From an uncultured Actinocrispum sp. (GTDB lineage: Bacteria > Actinomycetota > Actinomycetes > Mycobacteriales > Pseudonocardiaceae), in assembly GCA_966244135.1 (NCBI GenBank), contig CBIMJO010000001.1, positions 1 through 35,982 on the forward strand: 35,982 nt of DNA, in the 5' to 3' direction. Below, piece by piece: positions 8,855 through 35,557 of the stretch. Under the pieces are notes generated by a model that saw nothing but the letters and a program-made list of their open reading frames with translations, did not search any database and had not been told where the DNA came from. The position numbers were made by a program, and so were the translations under genes. Every line of letters starts with the position of its first letter. Positions within the stretch are counted from its first letter, which is position 1.

Positions 8855-9358
8855 GTGGCCATCCGAGGGATGAACCACGCGGTGCTGTGGGTGCGTGACG
8901 CGAGCGTCAGCACGGACTTCTACGTCGGTGTCCTGGGCTTCCGGGTGGTGCACCGGACGGCCAAGGCCGCGTTCCTGCAGGCCCCGGAGTCGGCCAACGA
9001 CCACGACCTGGGCCTGTTCGAGGTCGGCCCGGAGGCCGGGCTGAGCACCGCGGGAACCGGCCAGGTCGGCCTGTACCACGTGGCCTGGGAGGTCCCGACC
9101 CTCGCTGACCTGCGGCAGTACCGGGAACGCCTGGCCGAGGCGGGCGCGCTCGTGGGTTCGGCGGACCACGGCACGACCAAGGGCCTGTACGCCAAGGACC
9201 CGGACGGGCTGGAGTTCGAGGTCTGCTGGCTCGTGCCGGCCGACCTCGTCGACGACGACGCCCGCAACAGCCGCGGCGAGCTCGACCTGGACGCCGACAT
9301 CGCCCGCTACGGCGCGGACACCCTCGGCGCCTGCGCCCGGGTCGGCGCCCAACTCTGA
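8855..9358 (+). CDS. VOC/glyoxalase family protein
   Basis: GTG start; MNHAVLWVRD, NDHDLGLF, GLYHVAWEV, DHGTTKGLYAKDPDGLEFEVCW. Confidence 0.9.
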   Translation: MAIRGMNHAVLWVRDASVSTDFYVGVLGFRVVHRTAKAAFLQAPESANDHDLGLFEVGPEAGLSTAGTGQVGLYHVAWEVPTLADLRQYRERLAEAGALVGSADHGTTKGLYAKDPDGLEFEVCWLVPADLVDDDARNSRGELDLDADIARYGADTLGACARVGAQL

Positions 9359-9360
9359 CG

Positions 9361-9418
9361 TCACCCCTCGTGAGTGGTTGTGCCGGTTCGAACCGGCTTA
9401 ACCACTCACGAGGGGTGA
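9361..9418. terminator. 58-bp near-perfect palindrome; bidirectional terminator and/or REP-like element
   Basis: TCACCCCTCGTGAGTGGTT-GT-GCCGGTTC / GAACCGGC-TT-AACCACTCACGAGGGGTGA, 27 of 29 positions paired, between convergent stop codons. Confidence 0.8.
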
Positions 9419-9426
9419 GGTGGGGT

Positions 9427-12400
9427 TCATGACTTGGTGGGGGCGCCTTCGTAGCGGAGTTTGGGCAGCAGGCGTTCGTGTTTCATCACGACGCTGTGCG
9501 CCGCGACCGAAGTGCACCTGCCGATGTCCGCGCCGTACAAGGGAACCGTGGCGTGCGCCAACGTGGAGTAGGCGCCCACCTTGACCTTGTCGATCTTCAG
9601 CACGCGGTCTTCGAAGGTGTGCGCCTGGAACATGGCGTTCACCGTGGCGCCGTCGCCGAACTCCAGCATGTCCGGGTCGACGACCTGGGCGAACCCGTCA
9701 CCGAGCACGACCCGCTTGCCGATCTTCATGCCCATCCGCCGCAGGTAGACCGCCAGCATGAGGGTGCCCTCCAGCGCGGCGAGCACTCCGCTGGCGATGA
9801 CTCCCCAGGCGACGTACAGGAAGTCCCACCGGCTGCACCAGCATGACCACAGTGGATGGACGCCGGGCCGGACCTTGCCCAGCAGCAGCCATTTCATCGC
9901 CAGGATGATCAGGCACGGCAGCAGGGTGACCCCGAACGTGACCACCGCGGCGCCGATCGCGAGAAAAGCCGCGAACGGCAGCATCCGCACGGCGGTCGCG
10001 GTCCACCAGAACCAGGTCACCATGATCGCCAACGGCACTATGGGCAGCGCGAACCGCAGCCATTCCCAGAACAATCGCGTGACCCGCCGGGCGAACGACG
10101 GCGAGTGGGTCAGCTTCCGGTCCACCTCCACGACTTCCCGGTGCGGCAGCTCGAAAGCGGGATGCCCGAACCACGAACTGCCCGGTCGCACGGCACGATC
10201 GTCGGCCACGGTGCTGATGCCGATCAGGATGTCCGCGGGCAGCCGTTGCCCGCCGGTGATCACCGCGTGGTTGCCCAGGAACGTCTGCGGGCTGATGTGG
10301 ACGCTGCTCAGCGTGACCGTGCCCTGCTGGATCCGTGGCCCGCCAAGGTAGATCCCGTCGGCGAAGAACGTGTCGCCGCCGATGTGGACCAGCTCGGGGA
10401 CGACGTCGATGATCGTGCTGATCTCACAGCCACGCCCCAGTTTCATGCCCGCCCAGCGCAACCACACCGGCCAGTACAGGCCGCCGGACAGCCAGCGGCC
10501 GGCCGAGTCCACCAGCCCGGCCTTCAGCCAGATCCGGATGTAGGCCGGGCTCCACCGGCTGATCACCTTCTCGGTCACCCGGCCGAGCATCCGCGCCACC
10601 AGTGCCTCGAACGCGATCGTGACCATCAGCGTCAGGCACACCAGCCCGGCCATCAGCCACAGGAAAGGCATGTACAGCAACGGGTTGGAGATGGTCTCGA
10701 GCACCGAGTCGTACGTCACGCCGTAGTACAGGATGACGCCGACCGTCAGGCCGGTGGCCGGGATCGCGAGCACAAAGCCGAGCAACGTCCGGCTGACCAT
10801 CATCGCGATCGCGTGCAGCAACGGCGAAAGCACGCTGCCGTCCCGCTCGGGCTCGGGCGGGCGGGGCGCCGGGCCGACGAGCCGCGCGGGCACGCCGTCG
10901 TGCAACTCACCGTCCGAAATGGACTGACCGGCGGGCAGCGAGGACAGCGGCGCGAGCCAGGAGTCGCGTCCCATGTGCGTCCCCGCTTCCAGGCCGGCGC
11001 GAATGTCCACTGTGGCGCCGGAGTCGATCCGGACCGGGCCGACGACCACCTGGCCGTGTTCGAACCCCACCAGCCCGATGTGCGCGTCCTGGCTCAGTGT
11101 CACGTCGTCGCCGATGTCCAGCAGGTCCCAGCCGCCCTGAGTCAGGTTGACACCGCGGTGGATGTGCACGCGTTTGCCGATCCGGGCACCGAGTTTCCGC
11201 AACGCGATGCACTGGAACTCGGTGCCCGCGATGAACCCCCATGGAATCAGGCGTACGACGTGCTGCACGATCCACATCCGCAGCCGCAGGTTGCTCCAGG
11301 CCGGGGCCCGCACCGGCCGGTAGATCCCGATGAGCATCCGCTTCAGCCAGACCGCGAGCAGCACCGCGATCGGCGTCCAGGCCAGGCCGAGCGGGATCAG
11401 GACCACCGGCACGATCAGCACCAGCGGCAGCAGCCCGATCTGGCCCGCCAGCCACGGCAGGAACTTGAACGTGACGAGGTAGGCGATCGGCGCCAGCAGA
11501 AGCAGTTCGAGCGCGATCCAGCCGGCTTGGACCATGGTCACCTTGGCCGCGGCCCGCGCGGTCGAGACGACCGGCACGGGCGCCGGTTCCTGCCGGGCCG
11601 GCGCTCCCGGGCTGACCCGTCGCGCGAGCTGAGCCACCGTGCGGGCTTCGTAGACGTCCCGGACCGTGATCGCCTCGGTGGCCCGGTTCAGCCGGAGCTT
11701 GGAGATCAGGATCGCCGCCTGCAGCGAGGTCCCGCCGAGATCGTCGAAGAAGTCGTCCGTTGTGGACACTCCCCCGCTGATCTGGAAGACCTCGGCGAAG
11801 GCCTGCGCGATCGCCTTCTCGATCGGATCCGCCGCCACCGCACCACCGGTGCTGCGGCGTTCGGGCAACGTCAGCAGCGGCAGGTCGGTCCGGCGCAGCT
11901 TGCCGCCCGCGCTGCGGGGCAGATCCTTGATCACGCCGTACAGCGCGGGCACCATGTACGCAGGCAGTTCCTCATGCAGCCTGGCCTTCAGGCCGGCCAC
12001 ATGGGGCGGCCGCATCGGGTCGACCGGAACGATGTGCGCGGCAATGGCCTGCGCCGCACCCTCGCCCTGGACCCGGCAGGCCGCCTCCCGCACGCCGTCG
12101 CACCGCGCCAGGCAGGTCTCGATCGCCTCCAGTTCGATCCGGTAACCGCGAACTTTGACCTGCGAGTCGATCCGGCCGTGGTAGAACAGCGTCCCGTCCG
12201 GCTCGGCGTGCACGAGGTCACCGGTGCGATAAAGGCGCCCCAGCGCGGGGTGGTCCGGGAACTTCTCGGTGCTCAGTTCCGGCAGGTTGAGATATCCCAG
12301 CGCGAGCCCGGCACCGGACATGCACAATTCGCCCTTGTGCCCTGGGGCGACCGGGTTCAGGTGCTCGTCGAGGACCCAGGCGCGCATGCCGGGCACCGCG

Positions 12401-13377
12401 TGGCCGACGGCGATCGGTTGTCCCGCAACGATGTCCTGCCGCAGACAGGTGACCGTGCACTCGGTCGGGCCGTAGCCGTTGACCATCCGCCGCCCGCGAG
12501 ACCACTGCTCGGCGACATCGTCGGGCAGCGCCTCGCCGCCCACGTACAGCAGCCGCAGCTCGGGCAGCGCGGCCAGCGGATCGGGACAGGCGGCGGCCCG
12601 CAGCAGGGTCGGCGGCGGGCAGAACACGGTGATCCGCTCGTTGCGCAGCCACGGCACCACATCCGGGCCGAGCCGGACGGTCTCGTCGTCCATCACCACG
12701 ACGGTCGCGCCGGCCGACAGGGCCATCCAGGTCTCTTCGACGGAGGAGTCGTAGGCGGCGGACGACCCCTGCGCCACGCGGTCGCCCGGACGGAGGCCGA
12801 ACTCCATCAGGTCGCCGCTGACCAGGTTGGCGATGGACGAGTGCGCGATCATCACACCCTTGGGGCGGCCCGTGGTGCCGGACGTGTAGATCAGGTACGC
12901 CAGGCCGTCCGGCGCGAGCGGCGCCTCGATCGGCTGCATGGCCGCGATCGGCGCGTCGACCTGCACGACCGCGCCCGGGTAGCCGATCCGGCGCGCCCGC
13001 TCGGCACCCGCGGCGTCGGTGACCAGCACCCTGGCCCCGGCGTCCTTCAGGATGTGTTTGACCTGGTCGTCCGGAAAGGACGGATCCATGCACACGTGCG
13101 CCGACCCGGCCTTCAGCACGGCCAGCTGGGTCGCGTACAGCGCGTCGGACGTGCGCGGCAGCAGCAGCGCGATGATCCGCCCCCGGCCGACCAGCCGTTC
13201 GAAGATCCCCGCCGCCGCGTGGCTCTTGCGCAGCAGGTCGCGGTAGGTGATCCGGCTGCGCTGCGGCCGCCCGCCGGCCGGCGGGATGTCCACCGCGACC
13301 GCGTCCGGCCACCGCTGGGCGGCCTGCTCGAAGAAGTCGTAGAGCGAGACCGCCGGGGACTGGACGGTCGCGGTCAT
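9427..13377 (-). CDS. Pls/PosA-family membrane-bound single-module NRPS-like poly(amino acid) synthetase
   Basis: A domain (YTSGTTGRPKG, YGPTE, LYRTGD, GRIDSQVKVRGYRIEL, PRSAGGK), T domain (FFDDLGGTSL), hydrophobic TM segments, three tandem hexapeptide-repeat regions (LGARIGKRV, AGMKLGRGC, MGMKIGKRV), C-terminal QAHTFEDR. No canonical C or TE domain. Start ATG 13377 overlaps the SET gene stop. Confidence 0.92.
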   Translation of the reverse strand: MTATVQSPAVSLYDFFEQAAQRWPDAVAVDIPPAGGRPQRSRITYRDLLRKSHAAAGIFERLVGRGRIIALLLPRTSDALYATQLAVLKAGSAHVCMDPSFPDDQVKHILKDAGARVLVTDAAGAERARRIGYPGAVVQVDAPIAAMQPIEAPLAPDGLAYLIYTSGTTGRPKGVMIAHSSIANLVSGDLMEFGLRPGDRVAQGSSAAYDSSVEETWMALSAGATVVVMDDETVRLGPDVVPWLRNERITVFCPPPTLLRAAACPDPLAALPELRLLYVGGEALPDDVAEQWSRGRRMVNGYGPTECTVTCLRQDIVAGQPIAVGHAVPGMRAWVLDEHLNPVAPGHKGELCMSGAGLALGYLNLPELSTEKFPDHPALGRLYRTGDLVHAEPDGTLFYHGRIDSQVKVRGYRIELEAIETCLARCDGVREAACRVQGEGAAQAIAAHIVPVDPMRPPHVAGLKARLHEELPAYMVPALYGVIKDLPRSAGGKLRRTDLPLLTLPERRSTGGAVAADPIEKAIAQAFAEVFQISGGVSTTDDFFDDLGGTSLQAAILISKLRLNRATEAITVRDVYEARTVAQLARRVSPGAPARQEPAPVPVVSTARAAAKVTMVQAGWIALELLLLAPIAYLVTFKFLPWLAGQIGLLPLVLIVPVVLIPLGLAWTPIAVLLAVWLKRMLIGIYRPVRAPAWSNLRLRMWIVQHVVRLIPWGFIAGTEFQCIALRKLGARIGKRVHIHRGVNLTQGGWDLLDIGDDVTLSQDAHIGLVGFEHGQVVVGPVRIDSGATVDIRAGLEAGTHMGRDSWLAPLSSLPAGQSISDGELHDGVPARLVGPAPRPPEPERDGSVLSPLLHAIAMMVSRTLLGFVLAIPATGLTVGVILYYGVTYDSVLETISNPLLYMPFLWLMAGLVCLTLMVTIAFEALVARMLGRVTEKVISRWSPAYIRIWLKAGLVDSAGRWLSGGLYWPVWLRWAGMKLGRGCEISTIIDVVPELVHIGGDTFFADGIYLGGPRIQQGTVTLSSVHISPQTFLGNHAVITGGQRLPADILIGISTVADDRAVRPGSSWFGHPAFELPHREVVEVDRKLTHSPSFARRVTRLFWEWLRFALPIVPLAIMVTWFWWTATAVRMLPFAAFLAIGAAVVTFGVTLLPCLIILAMKWLLLGKVRPGVHPLWSCWCSRWDFLYVAWGVIASGVLAALEGTLMLAVYLRRMGMKIGKRVVLGDGFAQVVDPDMLEFGDGATVNAMFQAHTFEDRVLKIDKVKVGAYSTLAHATVPLYGADIGRCTSVAAHSVVMKHERLLPKLRYEGAPTKS

Positions 13378-13862
13378 CGCACTTCGGCAGCGAGCAGGTG
13401 AGCCGCCAGCCACGGCCGCAGCCGCGCCCGCTCGTCCGCGGACAGGTGCCGGAAGCCCTGCACGCGCCCGGCACAGCGCTCGCTGCCGCACCGGCAGGCG
13501 AACGGCTCGGCCATGTCGTATTCGGTCGTGTTGTAGTTGAAGGTGATGTCCTGTCCGAATTCGATCGGTTTCAGGCTGACCACCTCGCGGCCCTTGATCG
13601 TCACCGTCGGATCGCAGCCATGGTTCATGAATCGCCAGTAGAACCGGTCGAGAATGGCCTCGAAGTCATATTCAGCCGGTACATCGATATGCATGGCCGG
13701 ACCGACCTGCACCGTATACTTCGTCGGCCTGTGGCTGAGCTCGCCCACCACGGTGAACAGGTGTTCACCAGCGGCGACCGGCCTGTTGGCGATCAGGCGG
13801 AACTCGCCGCCGGCCCGCACGACCGCCACCGAACTCGTCGTGCCGAGCATTTCTATGGTCAC
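13374..13862 (-). CDS. SET-domain (lysine-type) N-methyltransferase with post-SET Cys motif
   Basis: RFMNHGCDP, ITFNY and post-SET CRCGSERC. GTG 13862 follows a GGGAG RBS (ATG 13850 or 13883 are alternatives). Confidence 0.9.
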   Translation of the reverse strand: MTIEMLGTTSSVAVVRAGGEFRLIANRPVAAGEHLFTVVGELSHRPTKYTVQVGPAMHIDVPAEYDFEAILDRFYWRFMNHGCDPTVTIKGREVVSLKPIEFGQDITFNYNTTEYDMAEPFACRCGSERCAGRVQGFRHLSADERARLRPWLAAHLLAAEVR

Positions 13863-13977
13863 ATCGACTCCCCGGATCGGCATTTTCCACTGCTTCCACC
13901 TGGGATACGAGGGCACCTCGGAATTGGTTCAGACTCCGCCGACGACCGGCAATACGATACGAAATTCGTTCCCGGCT

Positions 13978-13999
13978 GGACACTCTGTCAGGAATGTCC
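13978..13999. promoter_or_regulatory. Putative PucR-type operator upstream of the SET-NRPS operon
   Basis: GGACA-N12-TGTCC inverted repeat with an internal GACA repeat (minus strand GGACATTCCTGACAGAGTGTCC), overlapping the pucR stop and followed by an AT-richer promoter-like patch. Confidence 0.45.
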
Positions 14000-15145
14000 G
14001 GGATGAATGGCGTCGTGGCCGAGCACCGCGATGTGCAGGGCCGCCCTGGCCCGCGGCGAGTCGAGGTCGGCGTCCAGCAGCTGCCCGATCCGCTTGAGCC
14101 GGTCGTACAGCGCCTGCCGCGACATGTGCGCCGCGGCCGCCGCGTCGCTCTTGTTGCCACCACTGTCCAGATAGGACCGCAACGTGCCCAGCAGGTCCGA
14201 ACCCGGGTTCTCGGCGGTGTGCGCGAGCAGCGGGCCCAGCTCACGCTCCACATAAGCCTGCAGGTCATGGTCATCGCGCAACGACATCATCAGGGCGGGC
14301 AGGCCGACGTCGGCCGGACGGACATAGGACCGGCCACCGGTGCTCGTCGCGACCGCGGCCACCCGCAACGCTTCCGTCAACGACTGCCGTGCGTCGTGGA
14401 CGGCGGTCACCACCCGGCCGGCCCCGATCACAACGTCCGGCCCCACCCGGTTGCGCACCGCGGCCGCCAGCTTGGTCACCTGGTCGTGACCGTCCTCTCC
14501 GGACGCCAGCGCGAGCAGGATCGCTACGGAACCATCGGCGACCGAGCCGAACAACGCCGGCTGGCCGGTGTCGCGGAGCGCGTCGCCGACGGCCCGTGGG
14601 CGGCCGCGCACCGCGACACCTATGAGGGCACCCTCCGCCACGGGCACCCCCAGCACCTCCGCCCGCGTCGCGAACTGCGCGGCGGGCAGGTTTCCGGCCA
14701 GCAGGGCGGTCAGCAGGCCGCGCTGTGCCCGGTGCGCCGGGTCCTCGTCCTGGCGCAGCAACCGGTCGAGCGCGATCACCGCCGCGGCCCGTTCGGCCAG
14801 CAGCACATACGAGTCCGACGGTTGCGCGCACCGCACCAGCAGCCGGCCCCAGAACTGCCCGCCCGCACCGACAACCGTTGTCAGCCAACCGGTTCGCTCG
14901 TCGTACGACGTCGGTCCCGGCGTGACGATCCGGCGGGACAACGCTCTCCATTGGACGAGTACCGCCTGAGCGTCCGCCGACGGCGGGGCGAACGCAAGCA
15001 CGCGATGCGCGGTGTCCTCCAGCAGCACCGGACCGCCGGCGAATGCGGCCGCTTGTGCCACAACGACATCAGCGTCCGCGCCGGACAGCGAGAGCTCGGT
15101 GAAACACCGGTGGATTTCCATGCATGACGGTAATTCCGGTGCCAT
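13988..15145 (-). CDS. PucR/CdaR family transcriptional regulator
   Basis: C-terminal ELGPLL...LLGTLRSYLDSGGNKSDAAAAAHMSRQALYDRLKRI HTH, preceded by GAF- and GGDEF-like regions. ATG 15145 after GGAGGAGG; start uncertain. Confidence 0.9.
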   Translation of the reverse strand: MAPELPSCMEIHRCFTELSLSGADADVVVAQAAAFAGGPVLLEDTAHRVLAFAPPSADAQAVLVQWRALSRRIVTPGPTSYDERTGWLTTVVGAGGQFWGRLLVRCAQPSDSYVLLAERAAAVIALDRLLRQDEDPAHRAQRGLLTALLAGNLPAAQFATRAEVLGVPVAEGALIGVAVRGRPRAVGDALRDTGQPALFGSVADGSVAILLALASGEDGHDQVTKLAAAVRNRVGPDVVIGAGRVVTAVHDARQSLTEALRVAAVATSTGGRSYVRPADVGLPALMMSLRDDHDLQAYVERELGPLLAHTAENPGSDLLGTLRSYLDSGGNKSDAAAAAHMSRQALYDRLKRIGQLLDADLDSPRARAALHIAVLGHDAIHPGHS

Positions 15146-18736: not shown

Positions 18737-20254
18737 ATGTCGGTAACGAACCGGCGAACGTTTCTTTCCTGGCTGGCCAAGAGCGGGCTCGTGCTCGCCG
18801 CGGCCGGCTCTGCCATGGCGGAGGGCACCGTAGCGGCGGCCTCTCCGCGCGAAATTCTCGTGCTGACCAACGCCACGCTGATCGACGGCACCGGGGCAGG
18901 ACCCCGCCCAGACACAACGATCGTTGTGGCAGGCAACCAAATCCTCGCCGTCGGACGCCAGGGAATCGCGCCACCGGCCGGGGTGCGCGTGGTGGACCTG
19001 CGCGGAAAGTACGTCCTCCCCGGTCTGTGGGACATGCACACGCACACCGCGGACTTCGAACAACTACTGCTGCCGTTGTACATCGCGAATGGTGTCACCT
19101 CGGTGCGGGAGATGTGGGGTTTTCCGTTCGTGCGCGATGTGCACCGGCGGATCTCGTCCGGTGAGCTGCTCGGGCCGCGGATGGTGGTCGCGAGCACGAT
19201 CGTGGACGGTCCCGACTCGTGGCTGGTCAACCTGTGGAAGGACAACAAACCCTTCCAGGTGCGGACCCCGGCCGAGGCTCGCGCCGCGGTCCGGCAGGCG
19301 AAGCGGGACGGCGCCGACTTCATCAAGGTGTACTCGCTGCTGCGGGAGGACACCTTGGCGGCGACCGCGGATGAAGCTTCGAGGCTGGGCCTTCGCATCG
19401 CCGGGCACGTGCCAGATCGGCTGTCCGTCACACGATCGAGCGAACTTGGCATGCGCACGCAGGAGCACCTGTACGCGCTGTATGTCGATGTGTCCCGCGA
19501 CCGTGACGCGATCCGGCACACCATCCGGTCGATGCCCACCAACCCGGCCGATCCGTTCGCGTTCTTCTTCGCGGTGCGTGAGCTGGAGCGGCAGGCGATC
19601 AAGTCCTACGACCCTGGGCGTGCGGCGCCGGTGTTCGCTTCGTTGGTGCGCAACGGCACTTTCCTGACGCCCACGCTGACCGTGTTGAAGCTGTTCACCT
19701 CCACACCAGACGAGATCCGGGATCCCAGCCGCGAGAAGTACATGCCCAAGTGGGTCGTGGACCTGCGGTGGGCGCTCGGGCCGACACCGCCGCCGGACGT
19801 GATCGCCGCCAACCGCGCGTTCTTCGAGGCATCCGCGCAGCTGGTGCGCGACGCCTCGGCGGCCGGCGTCACCATGGTCGCCGGTACCGACGGCGGGTTC
19901 CTGGCGCCGTACATCCTCGGCGGGTTCTGCCTGCACGATGAGCTGGAACTGATGGTGCGAATCGGGTTCACGCCCATGCAGGCGCTGTTGAGCGCGACCC
20001 GGGATGCCGCGCGCACGGTCGGCCTGCAGCACGTCAGCGGGACGGTCGCGCCGGGCAAGTACGCCGACCTGCTGGTGGTGGACGGCAACCCGCTGGCCGA
20101 CATCCGCAACACCACCCGGATCCACGCGGTCGTCGCCAATGGACGGTTCATCAGCCGGGCCGAGCGGGAACGGATGCTCGCGGACGTCGAAGCCAAGGCC
20201 AAGCTGATCCCACCACCACCGGAAACCGTTCTGCCGATGAGATCCTGCTGCTAA
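18737..20254 (+). CDS. Tat-exported metal-dependent amidohydrolase
   Basis: NRRTFL twin-arginine signal; PGLWDMHTH, GADFIKVY, AGH, EH, AGTD, GKYADLLVVDGNPL motifs. Confidence 0.92.
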   Translation: MSVTNRRTFLSWLAKSGLVLAAAGSAMAEGTVAAASPREILVLTNATLIDGTGAGPRPDTTIVVAGNQILAVGRQGIAPPAGVRVVDLRGKYVLPGLWDMHTHTADFEQLLLPLYIANGVTSVREMWGFPFVRDVHRRISSGELLGPRMVVASTIVDGPDSWLVNLWKDNKPFQVRTPAEARAAVRQAKRDGADFIKVYSLLREDTLAATADEASRLGLRIAGHVPDRLSVTRSSELGMRTQEHLYALYVDVSRDRDAIRHTIRSMPTNPADPFAFFFAVRELERQAIKSYDPGRAAPVFASLVRNGTFLTPTLTVLKLFTSTPDEIRDPSREKYMPKWVVDLRWALGPTPPPDVIAANRAFFEASAQLVRDASAAGVTMVAGTDGGFLAPYILGGFCLHDELELMVRIGFTPMQALLSATRDAARTVGLQHVSGTVAPGKYADLLVVDGNPLADIRNTTRIHAVVANGRFISRAERERMLADVEAKAKLIPPPPETVLPMRSCC

Positions 20255-23136
20255 CCGGCCATGGCGCGCATCAGCTCCGCTCGGGACCGGATGCCGAGTT
20301 TGCGGTAGGTCCGCGCGACGTGTGACTCGACGGTCCGGTGGCTCATGAAGAGGGTGGCCGCGACCTGCTTGTTGGTCATGCCCGTGACGACCAGCTCGAC
20401 GACTCGCCGTTCGGTGCCGGTCAGGTGGGCGGTCGCGCGGCGGCGGCCCACCCGCGACAGCTCGTCGCGAGCCATCGCCGCCCACACCGGGTAGTCCTCG
20501 AAGAGTGTCTCGGCCTCGGTGAACGCGGCCGCTGCTGCGCCTGGTCTCCGGGCCCGGCGCAGCAACCGGCCGCGCTGCAACAGCACCCTGGCCTGCTCGA
20601 ACCTCGGCCAGCTCGGGTCCACCTCCAGCTCGGCGGTCTCGCCTCTCACGGCCGCTCGCGCCCGGACCAGGACCGGCTGCATCCACATCCTCGGGAACCG
20701 TTCGTAGCGCTGTTCGAACTCGGCCAGCTCCACTTCGGCTTCCGCGGTGCGACCGAGTTCGGCCAGCGCGCAGATCCGTTCGGCTGCCGGGTCTTCGGGG
20801 CCGATGGGTTCCTTGATGCGCATGGTGGCGAGGTGCCTTCTGCTGCGGGCGGTGTGGTCGACCACCGCTTGAGGGTCGGCCTCGGACGCGGCAATGAACG
20901 CCAGCACATTTAGGTACCCGACCGCTGAGACGAGATCTCCGTTGGCTTCCGTGCGGTCCGCGCCTTCCTGTGCTTGGTGTTTTGCCTCGTCGAGGTGGCC
21001 GGTGCAGGCGTCGATTCGCGCTCTCAGGCACTTGGGGCGGTCGGCGAACTGCTGGCCTTGTTGCTGTGCGATTCTGATCGCGGCATCAGCGTGTTCCTTG
21101 GCTTTGCCGAGGTTTCCCTGGATCAGTTCGGCTTCGCCTTGGCGGATGTCGTCAGGAATGCCGATGGCGGGTACCGCGTATCCGGATCGCAGGCCGAGCT
21201 GGACTTCGATGTGGTCTCGCAGCGCCGTGGCCGATGAGTTTGTTAGAACGGCTGTCTGGGCGTGCTTGAGTGCCTCTTCGCGATCCGCCTCACAGAAGAT
21301 CGCGAGCAGGGCATGGATTTCGCCGGTCAGCCTCCGGTCGGCTTTGGCGTCATCGAGCGCCTCATCGAGAAACTTGGCGGCCACCACACCGCCGTCCTGG
21401 TGCCAGGCGACTTTGCCGCGGAGGGTGAGGGCGCGTGCTCGTAACGGACCGGCGGCCAGTTTGGGGATCTCTTCGTCGAGGAGTTCGCGGGCGGCATTGA
21501 GGTCGCCTTCGGCGTAGAGGGCCTCGGCGAGGAACATGACGCGCCGGGTGTGGGCGGGGCCGGTCGGCGTCTTCAGCCTGGCCAGGCTCAACAGTTCGGC
21601 TGTTCGTGGCGTGGTGTCCTCAAGGAGCTGGGCGAGCGTCTCGTCGGGACCGATGGTGCCGAGCGCGCGATGCCATGCCCCGAAGCCGGGCTCGACCTCA
21701 GCGAGCCTGCGGTGAACACCCCTCCGCCTCGGCGCGGACACCTCCCCGTAGACCACCAACGCGAACAACGGGTGGTTGAAGATCACCTCGTTGCCGCGAA
21801 CGTGGATGATCCCAGCCTCCTCCGCCTCCTCCAGTTCGGCGCTCACCTCCACCCGGGCAGCCACATCCCCGCCAAGCCCCTCCCACACCCGCGGCCCGGC
21901 GGTCACACCGTCGTCGAATGCCTGCCGCAGCCGCTCCACCGTCGGCGTCTTCATCGCGGCCGCCGCGAGCAGGACATCGCTCTCCGGTTGCGGCGGGACC
22001 AATCGAAGTAGCTCGTCCGGCACCGGCCACGGCTCGTCTGGATGCAGCGACTCCCGCCCGCTAAGCGCCCCGGCCATCACCACGCCCACCAACGGATTCC
22101 CCTGGCAAAGCGCATGCAGCCGGTCCAGCACCGGCCGCGCCAGTCCCCGACCCAACCGCCGGTACACAACGTCATGAAGCTCGTCCCGGCTCAGCCCGCC
22201 CAGCCACACCTTCGCCAGTACTGGCCGGTCCGCCACGGAAGCCGCACCGAGTACTGGACGGTCCAGTTCCGCCCCTGCCGCGAGTACTGAACGGTCTAGT
22301 TCACCTGGAGCCATGGGTACTGAACGGTCCAGTACAACCGGCGGCGTGGGTACCGAACGGTCCAGTACCGAACTCGCCGCCAGTACTGGACGGTCCAGTT
22401 CATCCGGAGCCTCCGGTACCGAACGGTCCAGTTCCAATCCCGACCCGGGTACTGAGCGGTCTAGTTCCCGCGCCTGCGCGGGTACTGGACGGTCCAGTTC
22501 ATGCGGAACCTCCGGTACTGGACGGTCCAGTTCCACCCCTGGCCCGAGTACTGGACGGTCCAGTTCCACCCCTGGCCCGAGTACTGGACGGTCCAGTTCC
22601 CGCGTCATCCCAGGTACTAGACGGTCCAGTTCCCAAGGCGGCGCGCCCGGGTGATCAGCGCGACGGGCGACCAGGATCGCGACCCGCGCACCGGCCAACC
22701 GGCGGACAGCGAAGTCGAGAACAGCGTCGGTCTCCGGGTCCAGCCACTGCAGGTCATCCACCACCAGGAGCACCGGCCGCTGAGCCGCGAGCGCCCGCAG
22801 CACGCTCACCACGCCAGCCGCGACCACATGCGGATCGGCGACACCCGCCGCGCGATGAGTAGCGACCTCCAAGGCCTGCCGCTGAACCGAAGGGATCACC
22901 GGCAGCGAAGGCATCAGATCCGCCAGCCCGGCATACGCGTACCCGGTCTCCCCACGACCAGGACCGCAGCGCAGCACCGTCCACTCACGAGAGCGCGCCT
23001 CGTCGATGGCCGCCGACAGGATCGCCGACTTGCCGATCCCCGCCACGCCCTCCACCAGCAATGCGGCCGGCGCGACCGCACCACGGTCAAGCAGCAACTT
23101 GACCCGCCCCAGCTCAGCGTCCCGGCCGATGATCAC
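20251..23136 (-). CDS. AAA ATPase + LuxR HTH (LAL-like) regulator with internal 11-aa repeat insertion
   Basis: IIGRDAEL, Walker A GVAGIGKS, Walker B LLVVDDLQWLD, GNPL, C-terminal LTGTERRVVEL...TVESHVARTYRKLGI. GTG start at 23136. Confidence 0.88.
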   Translation of the reverse strand: MIIGRDAELGRVKLLLDRGAVAPAALLVEGVAGIGKSAILSAAIDEARSREWTVLRCGPGRGETGYAYAGLADLMPSLPVIPSVQRQALEVATHRAAGVADPHVVAAGVVSVLRALAAQRPVLLVVDDLQWLDPETDAVLDFAVRRLAGARVAILVARRADHPGAPPWELDRLVPGMTRELDRPVLGPGVELDRPVLGPGVELDRPVPEVPHELDRPVPAQARELDRSVPGSGLELDRSVPEAPDELDRPVLAASSVLDRSVPTPPVVLDRSVPMAPGELDRSVLAAGAELDRPVLGAASVADRPVLAKVWLGGLSRDELHDVVYRRLGRGLARPVLDRLHALCQGNPLVGVVMAGALSGRESLHPDEPWPVPDELLRLVPPQPESDVLLAAAAMKTPTVERLRQAFDDGVTAGPRVWEGLGGDVAARVEVSAELEEAEEAGIIHVRGNEVIFNHPLFALVVYGEVSAPRRRGVHRRLAEVEPGFGAWHRALGTIGPDETLAQLLEDTTPRTAELLSLARLKTPTGPAHTRRVMFLAEALYAEGDLNAARELLDEEIPKLAAGPLRARALTLRGKVAWHQDGGVVAAKFLDEALDDAKADRRLTGEIHALLAIFCEADREEALKHAQTAVLTNSSATALRDHIEVQLGLRSGYAVPAIGIPDDIRQGEAELIQGNLGKAKEHADAAIRIAQQQGQQFADRPKCLRARIDACTGHLDEAKHQAQEGADRTEANGDLVSAVGYLNVLAFIAASEADPQAVVDHTARSRRHLATMRIKEPIGPEDPAAERICALAELGRTAEAEVELAEFEQRYERFPRMWMQPVLVRARAAVRGETAELEVDPSWPRFEQARVLLQRGRLLRRARRPGAAAAAFTEAETLFEDYPVWAAMARDELSRVGRRRATAHLTGTERRVVELVVTGMTNKQVAATLFMSHRTVESHVARTYRKLGIRSRAELMRAMAG
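22218..22632. repeat. 13-unit tandem array, 33-bp period: 19-bp palindromic core plus 14-bp variable spacer
   Basis: Cores (consensus GTACTGGACGGTCCAGTTC) start at 22218, 22251, 22284, 22317, 22350, 22383, 22416, 22449, 22482, 22515, 22548, 22581 and 22614; they encode ELDR(P/S)V-x5 in the LuxR frame. Confidence 0.95.
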
Positions 23137-23249
23137 CTTCCGGGATCCCCTGATCCACGATCTCGCATAACAGCGTTCTAGCGCCCGGGGGTTGTTCGGC
23201 GCCGGGGCGCGGCTGCCGATCAACCAATCCGCGACCAATGCCATACTGC

Positions 23250-23265
23250 CCGTGACCAGTCACGG
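23250..23265. promoter_or_regulatory. Palindromic site in the divergent LuxR/STAND promoter
   Basis: CCGTGAC-CA-GTCACGG; preceded by CATACT (-10-like, 23242-23247) and ACCAAT direct repeats 11 bp apart (23223, 23234). Confidence 0.4.
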
Positions 23266-23297
23266 AACGGTGCTGGTCAGGGAGGGGACAGGGGGCT

Positions 23298-26200
23298 GTG
23301 CCACGACCAGAACGCCCGCTGGAGTCGGCGGACGAGGCGCTCCGCCAGTTCGCGGCCGACCTGCGCGGTCTGCGGGAGAAGGCGGGCGGCCCGACCTACC
23401 GTGAGCTCAGCAAGATCGCGCACTACTCCCCCAGTGTGCTGTCCGAGGCGGCGAACGGGCGGTCCCGCCCGAGTCTCGCGGTCACGTTGGCGTATGTGGA
23501 TGCCTGCGGCGGTGACCGCGGCGAGTGGGAACAGCGGTGGCGCGAGCTGGATGACAGTCCACCGGAGATCCAGGACAGCGGGGAGCCGCCGTATGTGGGG
23601 CTGGCCGCGTTCCAGGCGGATGACGCGGACCGGTTCTTCGGCCGGGACAAGCTGGTCACCGAGCTGCGGGCCCGGGTCCGGCAACGGCGGTTCGCGGGTG
23701 TCTTCGGGCCGTCCGGCTCGGGCAAGTCGTCGCTGCTGCGTGCCGGCCTGGTCGCCGGGACGGCTACGCCCACCCTGCTGTTCACGCCGGGACCGAACCC
23801 GATCGAGGAATGCGCGGTCCAGCTCGCCGCGCTGACCGGTGGATCGGCCGCGCAGCTGCGCACGGAACTCCACGAAGACCCGCGCAACCTGCACCTCCTC
23901 GTCCGCCAGGCCGTCGCCCGCGAGCCGGACGGAACGGACCTGCTGCTGGTCATCGACCAGTTCGAGGAGACGTTCACGCTGTGCCCGGACCGGGACGAGC
24001 GGACCCGGTTCATCGAGGCCCTGGTCCACCTGGCGACCGCGGACACCAGCCGCGCCCGCGTGGTGATCGGCGTCCGGGCGGACTTCTACGGCCACTGCGC
24101 GCAGTACCCGCAGCTGGTGGCCGCCCTGAATGACGCGCAGATCCTGGTCGGCCCGATGTCCGTCGAGGAACTCCGCGAGGCCATCACGGCACCGGCCGCG
24201 CGGGTGGGTTGCATGGTGGAGTCCGCGTTGGTGTCCAAGGTGATCGCCGATACCGCCGGTGAGGACGCCGTGCTGCCGTTGGTGTCGCACGCGTTGCTGG
24301 AGACCTGGCGCAGGCGCAGCGGCGCGCGGCTCACGCTCGCCGGGTATGAGGCGGCGGGCGGGATTCACCACGCCATCGCGCGCACGGCCGAAGACGTCTA
24401 CACCAGCCTGGACGAAAGCCAGCGCGAGATCGCGCGGCGGATCTTCCTGCGCCTGGTCGCCCTGGGCGAAGGCACCGAGGACACCAAACGCCGCGTGCGC
24501 CTGCGTGAACTCGACGCCGACAATCCGGACACCCGCGCGGTGCTGGACCGCCTGGCCGGCGCGCGGCTGCTGACGTTGCACAGCGACACAGTCGAGATCG
24601 CGCACGAGGCCCTGATCCGCTGCTGGCCGCGGCTGCGCGATTGGCTGTCGGACGACCGCGAGGGTCTGCGGGTGCACCGTCATCTCACCGAGGCGACCGA
24701 CGCGTGGGAGTCGGCCGAGCAGGATCCCGGGGCGTTGCTGCGCGGGACCCGCCTGGCCAGGGCGGGCGACTGGGCCGCTGAGCATGCTGGGCTGCTTACC
24801 TTGCGGGAAAAGGACTTTCTCGATACCAGTTTGTCCGCGCAGGCGGCAGAGCAGACCGCGGCGAGGCGGCGCACGCGCCGGCTGCGCCAGCTCGTGGCCT
24901 TACTGGCCGTCCTGCTTCTGTTGGCGTCCGCCGCGACCGTGTTCGCGGTCGGTGCTCAGCGCGAAGCCACCGAGCAGCGCGACATCGCGCTCGCCCGCAA
25001 GGTGGTCGGCGACGCGGAAGCGTTGCAGGCCACCAATCCCGCGCTCGCCGGGCAGCTGAGCCTGGCCGCCTACCGGCTGACCCGGATCCCGGAGGCACGC
25101 GACAGCCTGCTCGCGGCGACCTCAGCCCCGGCCGTCAGCAGGCTGACCGGGCACACCGCCGACGTGCAGTCCGTGGCCGTCGATCCCAGCAGTCACCTGC
25201 TGGCCACGGCCAGCACGGACAAGACCGTCAAACTCTGGGACATCAGCGACCCTCAGCGACCGTCACCAGTCGCAACCCTGACCGGGCACACCGATATCGT
25301 CAACTCCGCCGCCTTCGGCCCGGACACGTTGGCGACCGCGAGCAGCGACGGCACAATCCGGCTTTGGGATCTGCAAAACCAGTCCCCGATAGTCCTAACA
25401 GGACATAAAGGGCCGGTCTACTCCGTGGCGTTCAGTCGCGACGGCACCATGGCCAGCGCGGGCAGCGACAAGATCGTGCGGCTCTGGAACCGACAGCATC
25501 AGGAAATCGCCGCCCTGGCGGGACATACAGCGTCCATCCGGTCGGTGGCGTTCAGCCCGGACGGGTCCACCTTGGCGTCCGCGGGCAACGACGGCACCAT
25601 CCGGCTCTGGGATGTCCAAACCCACTCCTCGACCATCCTCACTGGACACATCGGCGCCATCCGATCCATCGCGTTCAGCCCCGATGGGTCCACATTGGTC
25701 AGTGGCGGCGTCGACAAAACCGTGCGGCTGTGGAACGTCAGCCAACACGTCTCGACGGCCATCCTGACCGGGCATACCGACTTCGTTGACGCGGTGGCGT
25801 TCAGTGCCGACGGACGGTACCTGGCCAGCGGCGGCAACGACTACACCGTCCACCTGTGGTCCCTTTTCGGTACACCCCAGGAGCTTGCCGTTCTCAACGG
25901 GCACACCAACATCGTCAACTCGGTGACGTTCAGTCCCGACGGCCGCAGCCTGATCACCGGCAGCGCGGACAAGACCGTCCGGGTGGAGAACCTGACGCAG
26001 CTGGTGTTCGCCCGGCACACCGACGCGGTGCGGTCGGCGGTGTTCAGCCCGGATGGCCGCATCGTCGCGACCTCGAGCAACGACCGGACCGCCCGGCTGT
26101 GGGACATCAGCGACCCGTTGCGGCCCCACGAACTCGCGGTCATCCAACAGCCATCCACCTTGTGGTCGGCCTTGTTCAGCCCCGACGGAAAACTCCTGGC

Positions 26201-27014
26201 CACCAGCCATGACGACGGCACCGCGCGCCTCTGGGACGTCACCGATCCTCGCAATCCCCGGGCCCTGGGCGCGGTGACCCACTCCGAGGCCATCTGGTCG
26301 ACGAGGTTCAGCCCGGACAGCCGGACGCTCGCCTCGGTCGGCGGCGATGCCGTGCGGCTGTGGGACATCAGCGATCCCACGAATCCGCGTCCGCGCGGCA
26401 CCGTCCCGGACCGGCCGATCACGTCCGTCCGGTTCAGCCCCGACGGCCGTCTCCTGGCCACTGCGAACGCTGACAACACGGCGGGTTTGTGGGACATCAG
26501 CTCGCCGGACTTGCCTCGCGAACTCAGCGCCCTTCGGGGCCACACCGCCCGTGTCACGCAGGTCGCGTTCCGTCCTGATGGCCACGTCCTGGCCACGGCG
26601 AGCTGGGATCACGACATCCGGCTGTGGGACATCGCGGATGCGGCCAGTCCCAAGGAACTCAGCGTCCTTCGCGGTCACACGGAAACGGTCACCTCGGTCG
26701 CCTTCCGGTCCGACGGCCAGGCCCTGGTGTCCGGCAGCCACGACCGGACCGCACGGCTCTGGGATGTCAGCGACACCCGCAATCCGCAGGCTCTGTCCAC
26801 TTTGGCCGGTCACAGTGGAGTGGTCGTCTCCGTGGGCTTCGGCCCCGACGGCCATCTCGTGGTGACCGGCAGCCAGGATCGGACCGCCCGGCTGTGGCAG
26901 ACCGATGTGGACAGTGCGGCCGCTCAGGTCTGCGCGCGGGCGTATCCGGCGATCAGCCAAGCCGAGTGGAACCAGTACTTCCCCAGCCTGAGCTACCAGC
27001 CACCCTGCCCCTGA
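23298..27014 (+). CDS. HTH + STAND NTPase (nSTAND1-like) + TM + 14 WD40 repeats signalling protein
   Basis: N-terminal XRE-like HTH (PTYRELSK), PYVGLAAF...FFGRD, GPSGSGKSSLLRAG, IDQFEE, LPLVSHAL, EIAHEALIR, TM helix, 14 GH...WD repeats counted. Confidence 0.93.
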   Translation: MPRPERPLESADEALRQFAADLRGLREKAGGPTYRELSKIAHYSPSVLSEAANGRSRPSLAVTLAYVDACGGDRGEWEQRWRELDDSPPEIQDSGEPPYVGLAAFQADDADRFFGRDKLVTELRARVRQRRFAGVFGPSGSGKSSLLRAGLVAGTATPTLLFTPGPNPIEECAVQLAALTGGSAAQLRTELHEDPRNLHLLVRQAVAREPDGTDLLLVIDQFEETFTLCPDRDERTRFIEALVHLATADTSRARVVIGVRADFYGHCAQYPQLVAALNDAQILVGPMSVEELREAITAPAARVGCMVESALVSKVIADTAGEDAVLPLVSHALLETWRRRSGARLTLAGYEAAGGIHHAIARTAEDVYTSLDESQREIARRIFLRLVALGEGTEDTKRRVRLRELDADNPDTRAVLDRLAGARLLTLHSDTVEIAHEALIRCWPRLRDWLSDDREGLRVHRHLTEATDAWESAEQDPGALLRGTRLARAGDWAAEHAGLLTLREKDFLDTSLSAQAAEQTAARRRTRRLRQLVALLAVLLLLASAATVFAVGAQREATEQRDIALARKVVGDAEALQATNPALAGQLSLAAYRLTRIPEARDSLLAATSAPAVSRLTGHTADVQSVAVDPSSHLLATASTDKTVKLWDISDPQRPSPVATLTGHTDIVNSAAFGPDTLATASSDGTIRLWDLQNQSPIVLTGHKGPVYSVAFSRDGTMASAGSDKIVRLWNRQHQEIAALAGHTASIRSVAFSPDGSTLASAGNDGTIRLWDVQTHSSTILTGHIGAIRSIAFSPDGSTLVSGGVDKTVRLWNVSQHVSTAILTGHTDFVDAVAFSADGRYLASGGNDYTVHLWSLFGTPQELAVLNGHTNIVNSVTFSPDGRSLITGSADKTVRVENLTQLVFARHTDAVRSAVFSPDGRIVATSSNDRTARLWDISDPLRPHELAVIQQPSTLWSALFSPDGKLLATSHDDGTARLWDVTDPRNPRALGAVTHSEAIWSTRFSPDSRTLASVGGDAVRLWDISDPTNPRPRGTVPDRPITSVRFSPDGRLLATANADNTAGLWDISSPDLPRELSALRGHTARVTQVAFRPDGHVLATASWDHDIRLWDIADAASPKELSVLRGHTETVTSVAFRSDGQALVSGSHDRTARLWDVSDTRNPQALSTLAGHSGVVVSVGFGPDGHLVVTGSQDRTARLWQTDVDSAAAQVCARAYPAISQAEWNQYFPSLSYQPPCP

Positions 27015-35305: not shown

Positions 35306-35557
35306 AAGGGTCAACGTAGCGGTGCGGCGGCGGGTGGGACCAGCCACGCTCTGCTTGACGCAAACCTGGTGAAGGCCGTCTGAAACCCGGTGTTCCCGCT
35401 CTTACCTCGCGACTCGGCCGGACCGCTACGTCTGGAAAGGACCGCGCGGAGGTGCCGGTTGTGACAAGGGGTGCCCGTTGATCGCTGTCACAAACCCGTG
35501 CGCTGCCTTGTCCTTGCTGGCGACCTGACCAGAGGACTGCCGAGACGAGGTTCAACG

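What the first reader, a model, noticed from the sequence alone, without database searches (positions are those of the whole stretch)
9427..13862. SET-domain methyltransferase translationally coupled to a Pls-like poly(amino acid) synthetase
Seen: the SET gene stop overlaps the NRPS start (ATGA at 13374-13377), making a tight two-gene operon closed by a strong hairpin. The NRPS has the A-T-TM-(3x hexapeptide) layout. Known: this layout defines epsilon-poly-L-lysine synthetase (Pls) and relatives that polymerise diamino acids through isopeptide bonds; SET domains methylate lysine-type amines using SAM. The degrading peptidase (Pld-type) and PPTase often found near Streptomyces pls are absent from this window. 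Inference: the pair makes an N-methylated cationic isopeptide polymer or oligomer, by methylating the monomer, the T-tethered intermediate or the free amines of the chain. I know of no characterised SET + Pls pathway.
Basis: partly seen in the sequence, partly recalled or inferred. Interest (0 to 1): 0.88.

Follow-up and report, generated by a model that had tools for sequence, protein, structure and literature searches.

The report
Methyltransferase feeding a polylysine-like synthetase
A small methyl-adding enzyme is encoded with, and once fused to, a membrane enzyme built like polylysine synthetase; it likely methylates a free amino acid (best guess: lysine to trimethyl-lysine) that the synthetase would join into an undescribed, permanently charged product.

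Summary
The pair is real. A 162-aa SET gene overlaps (ATGA) a 1316-aa A-T-(membrane pair + beta-helix)x3 synthetase. It recurs in 65 of 80 SET loci from five phyla, in 21 of 21 places both ways among 301 family genomes, and once as a fusion. The A-domain code is DSECYGGVTK, not the Pls lysine code; a published domain with this code prefers Arg about five-fold over Lys and barely uses Orn, Dab or Dap. The SET's closest solved structure is BurB, which methylates free methionine. Closer unsolved relatives sit in a goadvionin-like cluster or are fused to amino-acid decarboxylase, oxidase and ATP-grasp domains, so it likely methylates a free amino acid. Best guess is trimethyl-lysine, with methyl-arginine and S-methylmethionine as rivals. 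None has a side-chain amine for isopeptide bonds, so an alpha-linked chain or aminoacylated acceptor is more likely. Against a strict partnership: 42 of 48 metagenome synthetases with this code (or a close variant) have no adjacent SET. The scan found this pair before in other genomes; I found no paper on it.

The parts
13374..13862 (-). Small SET/post-SET methyltransferase, 162 aa, BurB-like class; three post-SET cysteines plus C83, Tyr110 kept, Val38 and Phe108 at the two amine-binding tyrosine positions
13868..13873 (-). GGGGAG, likely ribosome-binding site of the SET gene
   Evidence: sequence
13374..13377 (-). ATGA overlap of SET stop and synthetase start; an in-frame start gives the same -4 overlap in 20 of 65 linked loci, and lies between -23 and +3 in most others
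9427..13377 (-). Pls-like single-module membrane synthetase, 1316 aa
11899..13332 (-). Adenylation domain (residues 16-493), pocket code DSECYGGVTK
11614..11814 (-). Thiolation domain (residues 522-588) with invariant Ser551
9439..11496 (-). Terminal region (residues 628-1313): three units of a membrane helix pair plus a left-handed beta-helix, acetyltransferase-like
9358..9421 (.). Palindromic hairpin between the convergent synthetase and glyoxalase genes; member of a dispersed repeat, possible terminator

Best explanation
The two overlapping genes encode a SET methyltransferase that likely methylates a free basic amino acid, most likely L-lysine to N-epsilon-trimethyl-lysine (methyl-arginine is the next choice), and a membrane synthetase that would activate this permanent cation and condense it into an alpha-linked cationic chain or onto an acceptor at the membrane. 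Steps: (1) Shown: the genes overlap, travel together, and are once fused. (2) Inferred: the SET binds a free amino acid as BurB does and, lacking both amine-binding tyrosines, methylates to the top state. (3) Inferred: the A domain holds the alpha-amine with Asp210 and the cation with Glu214 and Tyr278, with Gly301 (Thr in Pls and PosA) making room; plain Arg fits the same pocket and would serve where the SET is missing. (4) Inferred from family knowledge: a host PPTase primes Ser551 and the three beta-helix units form the amide bond. (5) Inferred: a quaternary ammonium or guanidinium side chain cannot make an isopeptide bond, so the link is through the alpha-amine or to another acceptor.
For: Linkage: synthetase directly downstream in 65 of 80 SET loci (best 80 of 281); 21 of 21 places both ways in 301 family genomes, where 216 genomes carry some Pls-type protein; 8 of 15 genomes with a lone SET carry the same synthetase clade elsewhere; fusion P0414; SET and synthetase distances correlate (rho 0.62, 62 pairs; kin are not independent). 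Free amino acid: BurB is the top match by Foldseek (E 3.7e-10 against 9.9e-8 next), VIA-align (Z 14.0, rmsd 3.1, 125 aligned, against Z 10.5) and profile; BurB seals a free amino acid in its pocket (PMC12542666); SETs of this class are fused to a LysA-like decarboxylase, a flavin oxidase and ATP-grasp ligases at 32-36% identity. Basic amino acid: a 36%-identical SET (86.7 bits, against 58.5 for BurB) is the only methyltransferase I matched in a lipolanthine cluster with LanKC, SxxSxxC precursor, LanD, type I PKS, Fab enzymes and GNAT. A review says that in the like-built goadvionin pathway 'lysine first undergoes methylation' (PMC8842026), and goadvionins carry a trimethylammonio head (PMC9811515). 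Pocket: same code as Bdello_A, which ranks Arg > Lys > Orn > Dab and whose authors suspect 'a larger analog'. No tyrosine at position 38 in any of 65 linked SETs and Phe at 108 in 99% or more; loss of these tyrosines raises the methylation state in SET7/9 (PMC12514578).
Against: No substrate of this SET has been tested. Only 6 of 48 evaluable metagenome synthetases have an adjacent SET, and the code is the same with or without it. Three of three non-seed genomes with this synthetase in a 251-genome phylum sample lack a close SET. No residue separates SET-linked from SET-less synthetases (best difference 0.55). The only tested enzymes of this SET class that I read about methylate methionine, not lysine. 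That the goadvionin lysine methyltransferase is a SET protein is not stated in anything I could read, and the lipolanthine relative's place next to this clade is unresolved (SH-aLRT 88, open fork). No alpha-linked product of a Pls-family enzyme appears in the papers read.
Confidence: 0.42

Rival explanations
1. The SET is a BurB-type methionine S-methyltransferase. It makes S-methylmethionine, which the synthetase activates and joins into a sulfonium-bearing chain or transfers to an acceptor.
For: BurB is the best solved match by three methods. The hairpin motif that binds the methionine amine in BurB (His72-Thr73-x-Gln75, His81) is kept as Tyr49-Thr50-x-Gln52, His58, and both lack the first channel tyrosine. 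A 34%-identical SET is fused to a LysA-like decarboxylase (P0428), recalling BurB plus the decarboxylase BurI. A Glu plus aromatic pocket suits a sulfonium, and neither Met nor S-methylmethionine was in the Bdello_A panel.
Against: Only 21-22% identity to BurB, while BurB and its Streptomyces counterpart share 35%. This clade has an invariant Trp76 where BurB has Ser88 and an 11-residue insertion. Bdello_A activity rises with chain length (Arg > Lys > Orn > Dab), and S-methylmethionine is short. SET-less synthetases keep the same code.
Confidence: 0.2
2. The synthetase uses plain L-arginine everywhere. The SET is an optional tailoring enzyme that methylates the carrier-bound unit, the finished oligomer, or the acceptor or starter molecule.
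For: Arg is a real substrate of a domain with this code (about 3.1 against 8.3 for PosA on Orn). The code does not change with SET presence. SET-linked and SET-less synthetases are interleaved in the tree. Linked SETs keep an acidic inserted helix better than lone ones (Glu68 91% against 47%, Asp72 97% against 33%), which could be a docking or product-binding surface. SET7/9 can methylate arginine under forcing conditions.
Against: The BurB-type pocket closes over a small free substrate. Fusions of this SET class are to enzymes that take free amino acids. Eight genomes keep the SET and the synthetase apart, which suits a diffusible product.
Confidence: 0.2
3. One reading: the pair makes an N-methylated isopeptide polymer, for example from N-epsilon-monomethyl-lysine joined through the secondary amine.
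For: Asp210 and Glu214 match the two residues essential in PosA. Many polar residues of the terminal region are shared with canonical Pls-type proteins (for example Glu985, Asp1007, Gln1251, His1253, Asp1257). All characterised family members make isopeptides. A monomethyl-lysine would be a 'larger analog suitable for polymerization'.
Against: Lys, Orn, Dab, Dap and beta-Lys are poor substrates for this code. The SET lacks the tyrosines that hold methylation at the mono state. SET-less members would have no monomer.
Confidence: 0.1
4. The SET methylates a protein (the synthetase itself or another target) and regulates rather than builds the product.
For: Databases name these proteins 'protein-lysine N-methyltransferase'. 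The NH and post-SET cysteine motifs match histone enzymes. The synthetase occurs without it.
Against: BurB outranks every protein methyltransferase by fold and profile. The relatives' fusions and clusters are biosynthetic.
Confidence: 0.06

Closest known systems
Pls, epsilon-poly-L-lysine synthetase of Streptomyces albulus (A domain 7WEW), and the CHPA synthetase family (PMC10522769, PMC8117764)
   Same: A-T-(two membrane helices + acetyltransferase-like domain)x3 layout; Asp and Glu at code positions 1 and 3; many shared polar residues in the terminal region.
   Different: Code DSECYGGVTK against DAESIGTVVK; 31% identity to this genome's own canonical Pls; below the TIGR02353 cut-off (350 against 423; the canonical copy scores 740); no peptidase beside it; a SET gene in front.
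Bdello_A, the Bdellovibrionales CHPA-synthetase A domain of Patel and Gulick 2023 (PMC10522769)
   Same: Identical ten-residue code.
   Different: Only the isolated A domain was assayed, on seven substrates; no product, no methylated substrate, and no occurrence of 'methyltransferase' in the main text. I could not find its accession, so whether it has a SET neighbour is unchecked.
PosA, delta-poly-L-ornithine synthetase of Acinetobacter baumannii
   Same: Same layout; tested isopeptide polymer of 7-12 units.
   Different: Code DMEHNGTVSK with Thr304 and Ser313 binding the side-chain amine; single gene without a partner.
BurB (9L4T, 9L4V) and MSMT, SET-domain methionine S-methyltransferases
   Same: Best structural and profile match; same size, same hairpin motif, same central tyrosine, no first channel tyrosine.
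   Different: 21-22% identity; Trp76 for Ser88; inserted helix; BurB feeds a decarboxylase route to DMSP, and no such genes recur beside this pair.
Goadvionin / lipolanthine starter pathway (PMC8842026, PMC9811515, PMC7540663)
   Same: A pathway methylates free lysine to give a permanent cation; a 36%-identical SET lies in a cluster of this build (L114).
   Different: There the methylated amino acid is shortened to an acyl starter for a lipopeptide. That the goadvionin enzyme is a SET protein was not confirmed in any text I read.

Membership tests
Pls/PosA (CHPA) synthetases | A and T domains, no C or TE domain | tested here: met
   Pfam; Ser551 invariant
Pls/PosA (CHPA) synthetases | Three acetyltransferase-like domains separated by six membrane helices | tested here: met
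   model, hydropathy, Foldseek hits to hexapeptide acetyltransferases, internal repeats
Pls/PosA (CHPA) synthetases | TIGR02353 score above the curated cut-off | tested here: not met
   350.2 bits against 423.1, full-length match, E 2e-104
Pls/PosA (CHPA) synthetases | Asp and Glu at code positions 1 and 3 | tested here: met
   Asp210, Glu214; rule from PMC10522769
Pls/PosA (CHPA) synthetases | Code of a tested diamino-acid synthetase | tested here: not met
   DSECYGGVTK matches none of the Pls, PosA or beta-lysine codes seen and matches the Arg-preferring Bdello_A; full Dap and Dab codes were not seen
Pls/PosA (CHPA) synthetases | Isopeptide-linked homopolymer as product | not testable with these tools
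   needs product analysis
SET-domain methyltransferases | SET fold, NHxC motif, central tyrosine, post-SET cysteines | tested here: met
   Pfam above cut-off; N80-H81, C83, Y110, C123, C125, C130 conserved; model pLDDT 93
Protein-lysine SET methyltransferases | Channel tyrosines that bind the lysine amine | tested here: not met
   Val38 opposite the Tyr of NSD2 'EYVGE', aliphatic in 64 of 65 linked SETs and one gap; Phe108. Equivalence to SET7/9 Y245 and Y305 is recalled; their role is
BurB/MSMT methionine S-methyltransferases | Fold and substrate hairpin of BurB | tested here: met
BurB/MSMT methionine S-methyltransferases | Orthologue-level similarity and DMSP pathway neighbours | tested here: not met
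   21-22% identity; apart from the pair, no gene family recurs in more than 10 of 80 loci once shadow frames are set aside
BurB/MSMT methionine S-methyltransferases | Methylates free L-methionine | not testable with these tools
   needs an enzyme assay

The most novel reading that the evidence does not exclude
A two-gene cassette spread over at least five bacterial phyla makes a natural poly-onium peptide: a SET enzyme turns a free amino acid into trimethyl-lysine or S-methylmethionine, and a Pls-type membrane enzyme polymerises it through alpha-amide bonds. This would be the first permanently charged, non-isopeptide product of this enzyme family, with poly-arginine as the SET-free version.
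Probability: 0.3. Interest if true: 0.85.

Novelty: new variant of a known kind. Interest (0 to 1): 0.62.

Why it matters
Patel and Gulick left the true substrate of the DSECYGGVTK synthetases open. The linked SET gives a short list of candidates that two purified proteins can test. A polymer of permanent cations would widen a family known for antimicrobial polymers (epsilon-polylysine is a food preservative) beyond isopeptides. It would also add a new small-molecule reaction to bacterial SET enzymes, most of which are annotated as protein-lysine methyltransferases by default; the same SET class is fused to ATP-grasp, decarboxylase and oxidase domains elsewhere.

Tried and rejected
Complex prediction of the SET with the A-T part gave no answer (score 0.00, mark 0.32); it is no evidence either way. 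No RNA holder was listed among sequencing runs, and the best DNA share was 0.17; none was laid. No third gene is conserved beside the pair or beside the SET-less synthetases (largest neighbour cluster 8 of 80). No SET-synthetase fusion was found in my 180 loci; it appeared only in the longer-protein search. Two more genome samples were uninformative: 1 of 126 and 2 of 121 matches, being the two seed genomes and one 184-residue piece. Whether SET-less metagenome synthetases have a SET elsewhere in their genomes could not be checked, as those records are not held. No full-length solved relative of the terminal region was found by sequence or by Foldseek. PADLOC gave no match for either gene. The protein atlas returned only generic SET clusters. 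The hairpin as a conserved terminator was rejected. A substrate-switch residue tied to SET presence was looked for and not found. The goadvionin primary paper is not held and the lipolanthine supplement was too large to read, so the role of SET proteins there stays inferred. One supplementary file of PMC10522769 could not be read. BurB could not be placed in my SET tree because no BurB sequence was held.
Full report
OBSERVATION. The SET gene runs from 13862 to 13374 and the synthetase from 13377 to 9427, both on the minus strand, overlapping in ATGA. The SET passes the Pfam cut-off (30.6 against 22.4 bits). The synthetase has A and T domains and a full-length TIGR02353 match that stays below the cut-off (350 against 423). 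An AlphaFold model of the terminal region (pLDDT 88.8) shows three alternating units of a helix pair and a beta-helix; its Foldseek matches are hexapeptide acetyltransferases and gamma-class carbonic anhydrases. The hairpin at 9358-9421 is strong (z -8.9) but lacks a U tail, recurs on 11 contigs, and has a counterpart in only 5 of 59 related loci. The genome is an actinomycete; its closest titled relative is an Actinocrispum record at 95% identity. It has three PPTase matches and a canonical Pls with a peptidase on another contig.

IS THE PAIR MORE THAN CHANCE? Yes. Of the best 80 of 281 genome loci with this SET, 65 have the synthetase directly downstream; 13 do not, and 2 end too soon to tell. 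By record title the 65 come from Actinomycetota, Verrucomicrobiota, Planctomycetota, Armatimonadota and Gammaproteobacteria. In 301 genomes of the window's family, 216 carry a Pls-type terminal domain, but the close SET (E < 1e-60) occurs at 21 places in 20 genomes and this synthetase clade at the same 21 places (seven candidates were scored per genome). Of the 15 genomes whose SET stands alone, 8 carry the clade synthetase elsewhere, with the same code in the 6 that could be read. One 1500-aa protein fuses the two (P0414, cluster of 10). Pairwise distances of SET and synthetase correlate (rho 0.62 over 62 pairs, 0 of 999 permutations; kin are not independent).

THE LINK IS ONE-SIDED. Searching from the synthetase in metagenomes (best 80 of 448 loci), only 6 of 48 loci with at least 700 bases upstream have a SET; the other 32 were too short or had no A domain. 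A SET elsewhere in those genomes could not be checked. In a 251-genome sample of another phylum, three non-seed genomes carry the clade synthetase and none has a close SET; their other SET proteins score 58 bits or less and do not match the substrate hairpin. In a FastTree tree of 130 rows, SET-linked or SET-in-trans synthetases occupy the deepest branches and SET-less ones are interleaved (the middle of the printout was cut). No column separates the two groups. The SET nearly always goes with the synthetase; the synthetase often goes without it.

THE A DOMAIN. The pocket code is DSECYGGVTK in 59 of 63 aligned rows from the SET loci, window included; the others are two single-change variants, one truncated row and one unrelated domain. 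It is the same in 117 of the best 120 database relatives and in 53 of 62 metagenome rows, 2 of which were partial. Pls reads DAESIGTVVK and PosA DMEHNGTVSK. Patel and Gulick assayed a Bdellovibrionales domain with exactly this code: Arg 2.8-3.2, Lys 0.6-0.7, Orn 0.2-0.4, Dab, Dap, beta-Lys and citrulline 0.3 or less, blank under 0.1. They suspected a larger analog. Met, S-methylmethionine and methylated Lys or Arg were not in that panel. The change of a hydrogen-bonding Thr to Gly and the gain of a Tyr suit a bulky, delocalised cation (inference).

THE SET. The model (pLDDT 93) matches BurB best by Foldseek (E 3.7e-10, next 9.9e-8) and VIA-align (Z 14.0, rmsd 3.1 over 125 residues, next Z 10.5), and the family profile does too (E 5.7e-15). 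BurB methylates free methionine, held by main-chain bonds in a pocket that closes when SAM binds. The hairpin that binds the amino acid is kept, and the tyrosine of the histone enzymes' EYxG motif is aliphatic in both. Loss of the channel tyrosines allows higher methylation in SET7/9 (the mapping of positions is recalled). Identity to BurB is only 21-22%. Closer relatives point to N-methylation: a 36%-identical SET is the only methyltransferase I matched in about 26 kb of a lipolanthine cluster of goadvionin-like build, and reviews state that goadvionin synthesis starts with lysine methylation and ends in a trimethylammonio head, while microvionin has a dimethylguanidino head. Other relatives are fused to ATP-grasp, decarboxylase and oxidase domains. 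The order of these groups is unresolved.

MECHANISM. The common thread is a free amino acid turned into a permanent cation and passed to an amino-acid-using enzyme. The first three all lack a side-chain amine able to form an isopeptide, so the product would be alpha-linked or an aminoacylated acceptor. Shown: gene structure, linkage, fusion, code, fold matches. Inferred: every substrate and the product.

WHAT IS KNOWN. It works like a Pls/PosA synthetase by layout and shared terminal residues, but it fails the family score and the diamino-acid code, so I file it as a separate branch. Ten literature searches listed no paper on a SET with a Pls-type enzyme; most subscription journals are not searched. 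What I saw: PMC12542666, parts 1-3 of 4; PMC10522769, part 1 of 8, section 11, passages and one supplement file; passages only of PMC7496086, PMC8117764, PMC9811515, PMC8842026, PMC7540663, PMC10125368, PMC12514578, PMC5700997, PMC13245600, PMC12159101, PMC9505594 and bioRxiv 10.1101/2023.10.25.564083. Unread supplements may bear on the Bdello_A gene context and on SET genes in lipolanthine clusters. The scan's own notes list this pair in other genomes (four notes with all search words and one more); they gave me the fusion and in-trans leads, which I tested, and a search of them for BurB or S-methylmethionine found nothing.

VERDICT. A real, widespread, uncharacterised two-gene unit: a new variant of a known kind, interest 0.62. 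It makes an open substrate question testable with two proteins. The score is held down because the SET is dispensable in much of the clade and no chemistry is shown.

Noticed in passing
window 13988-15019 (-): PucR-type regulator gene 125 bases upstream of the SET on the same strand. A gene family that looks the same lies upstream in 10 of 80 loci, mostly the closest relatives.
   Followed up: partly
window 9358-9421: The hairpin belongs to a dispersed palindromic repeat with matches on 11 contigs of this genome.
   Followed up: partly
G000:C117:6489-11701: The same genome has a canonical lysine-code Pls (DAESIGTVVK, 740 bits) followed by an M1 aminopeptidase.
   Followed up: yes
P0241, P0242, P0244, P0246: Leishmania, Trypanosoma and Strigomonas proteins of 855-1479 aa hold up to ten tandem SET domains that match this bacterial class; their role is unknown to me.
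   Followed up: partly
P0415-P0427 and others, P0243, P0412: A recurring fusion of this SET class with a D-Ala-D-Ala-ligase-like ATP-grasp domain, also in the alga Mesostigma; possibly a second route to methylated peptides.
   Followed up: partly
P0428, P0430: SET fused to a LysA-like decarboxylase, and SET fused to a flavin amine-oxidase-like protein.
   Followed up: partly
L114 with L247 and L248 (G011:C15:21000-47000); L113 (G101): A lipolanthine cluster with SET, TPP enzyme and Glu/Leu/Phe/Val dehydrogenase; G101 has the SET, dehydrogenase, ligase, ACP and Fab genes with no lanthipeptide gene in the stretch read.
   Followed up: partly
L115 and L117: A more distant SET lies between two NRPS genes, one of them a C-A-T-TE protein fused to an MFS transporter; codes DTMTIGEATK and DLYNMSLIWK.
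   Followed up: partly
P0219, P0239: Synthetases of this clade with an extra C-terminal HGSNAT/DUF418 membrane acyltransferase-like domain.
   Followed up: no
L032, L028, L033, G132: Apparently broken copies: a synthetase matching only residues 11-205 (L032), SET genes in two pieces (L028, G132) and a synthetase in pieces (L033).
   Followed up: no
L154, L178, L192: A variant pocket code DSECYGDVSK in three SET-less metagenome synthetases.
   Followed up: no
L026, L030: Records titled Akkermansia muciniphila group with a Pedosphaera record in the synthetase tree; the titles may be wrong.
   Followed up: no
window 20251-27014 and 33248-35347: A LuxR-AAA regulator divergent from an nSTAND1-WD40 protein, and a leucine-rich-repeat protein.
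   Followed up: no
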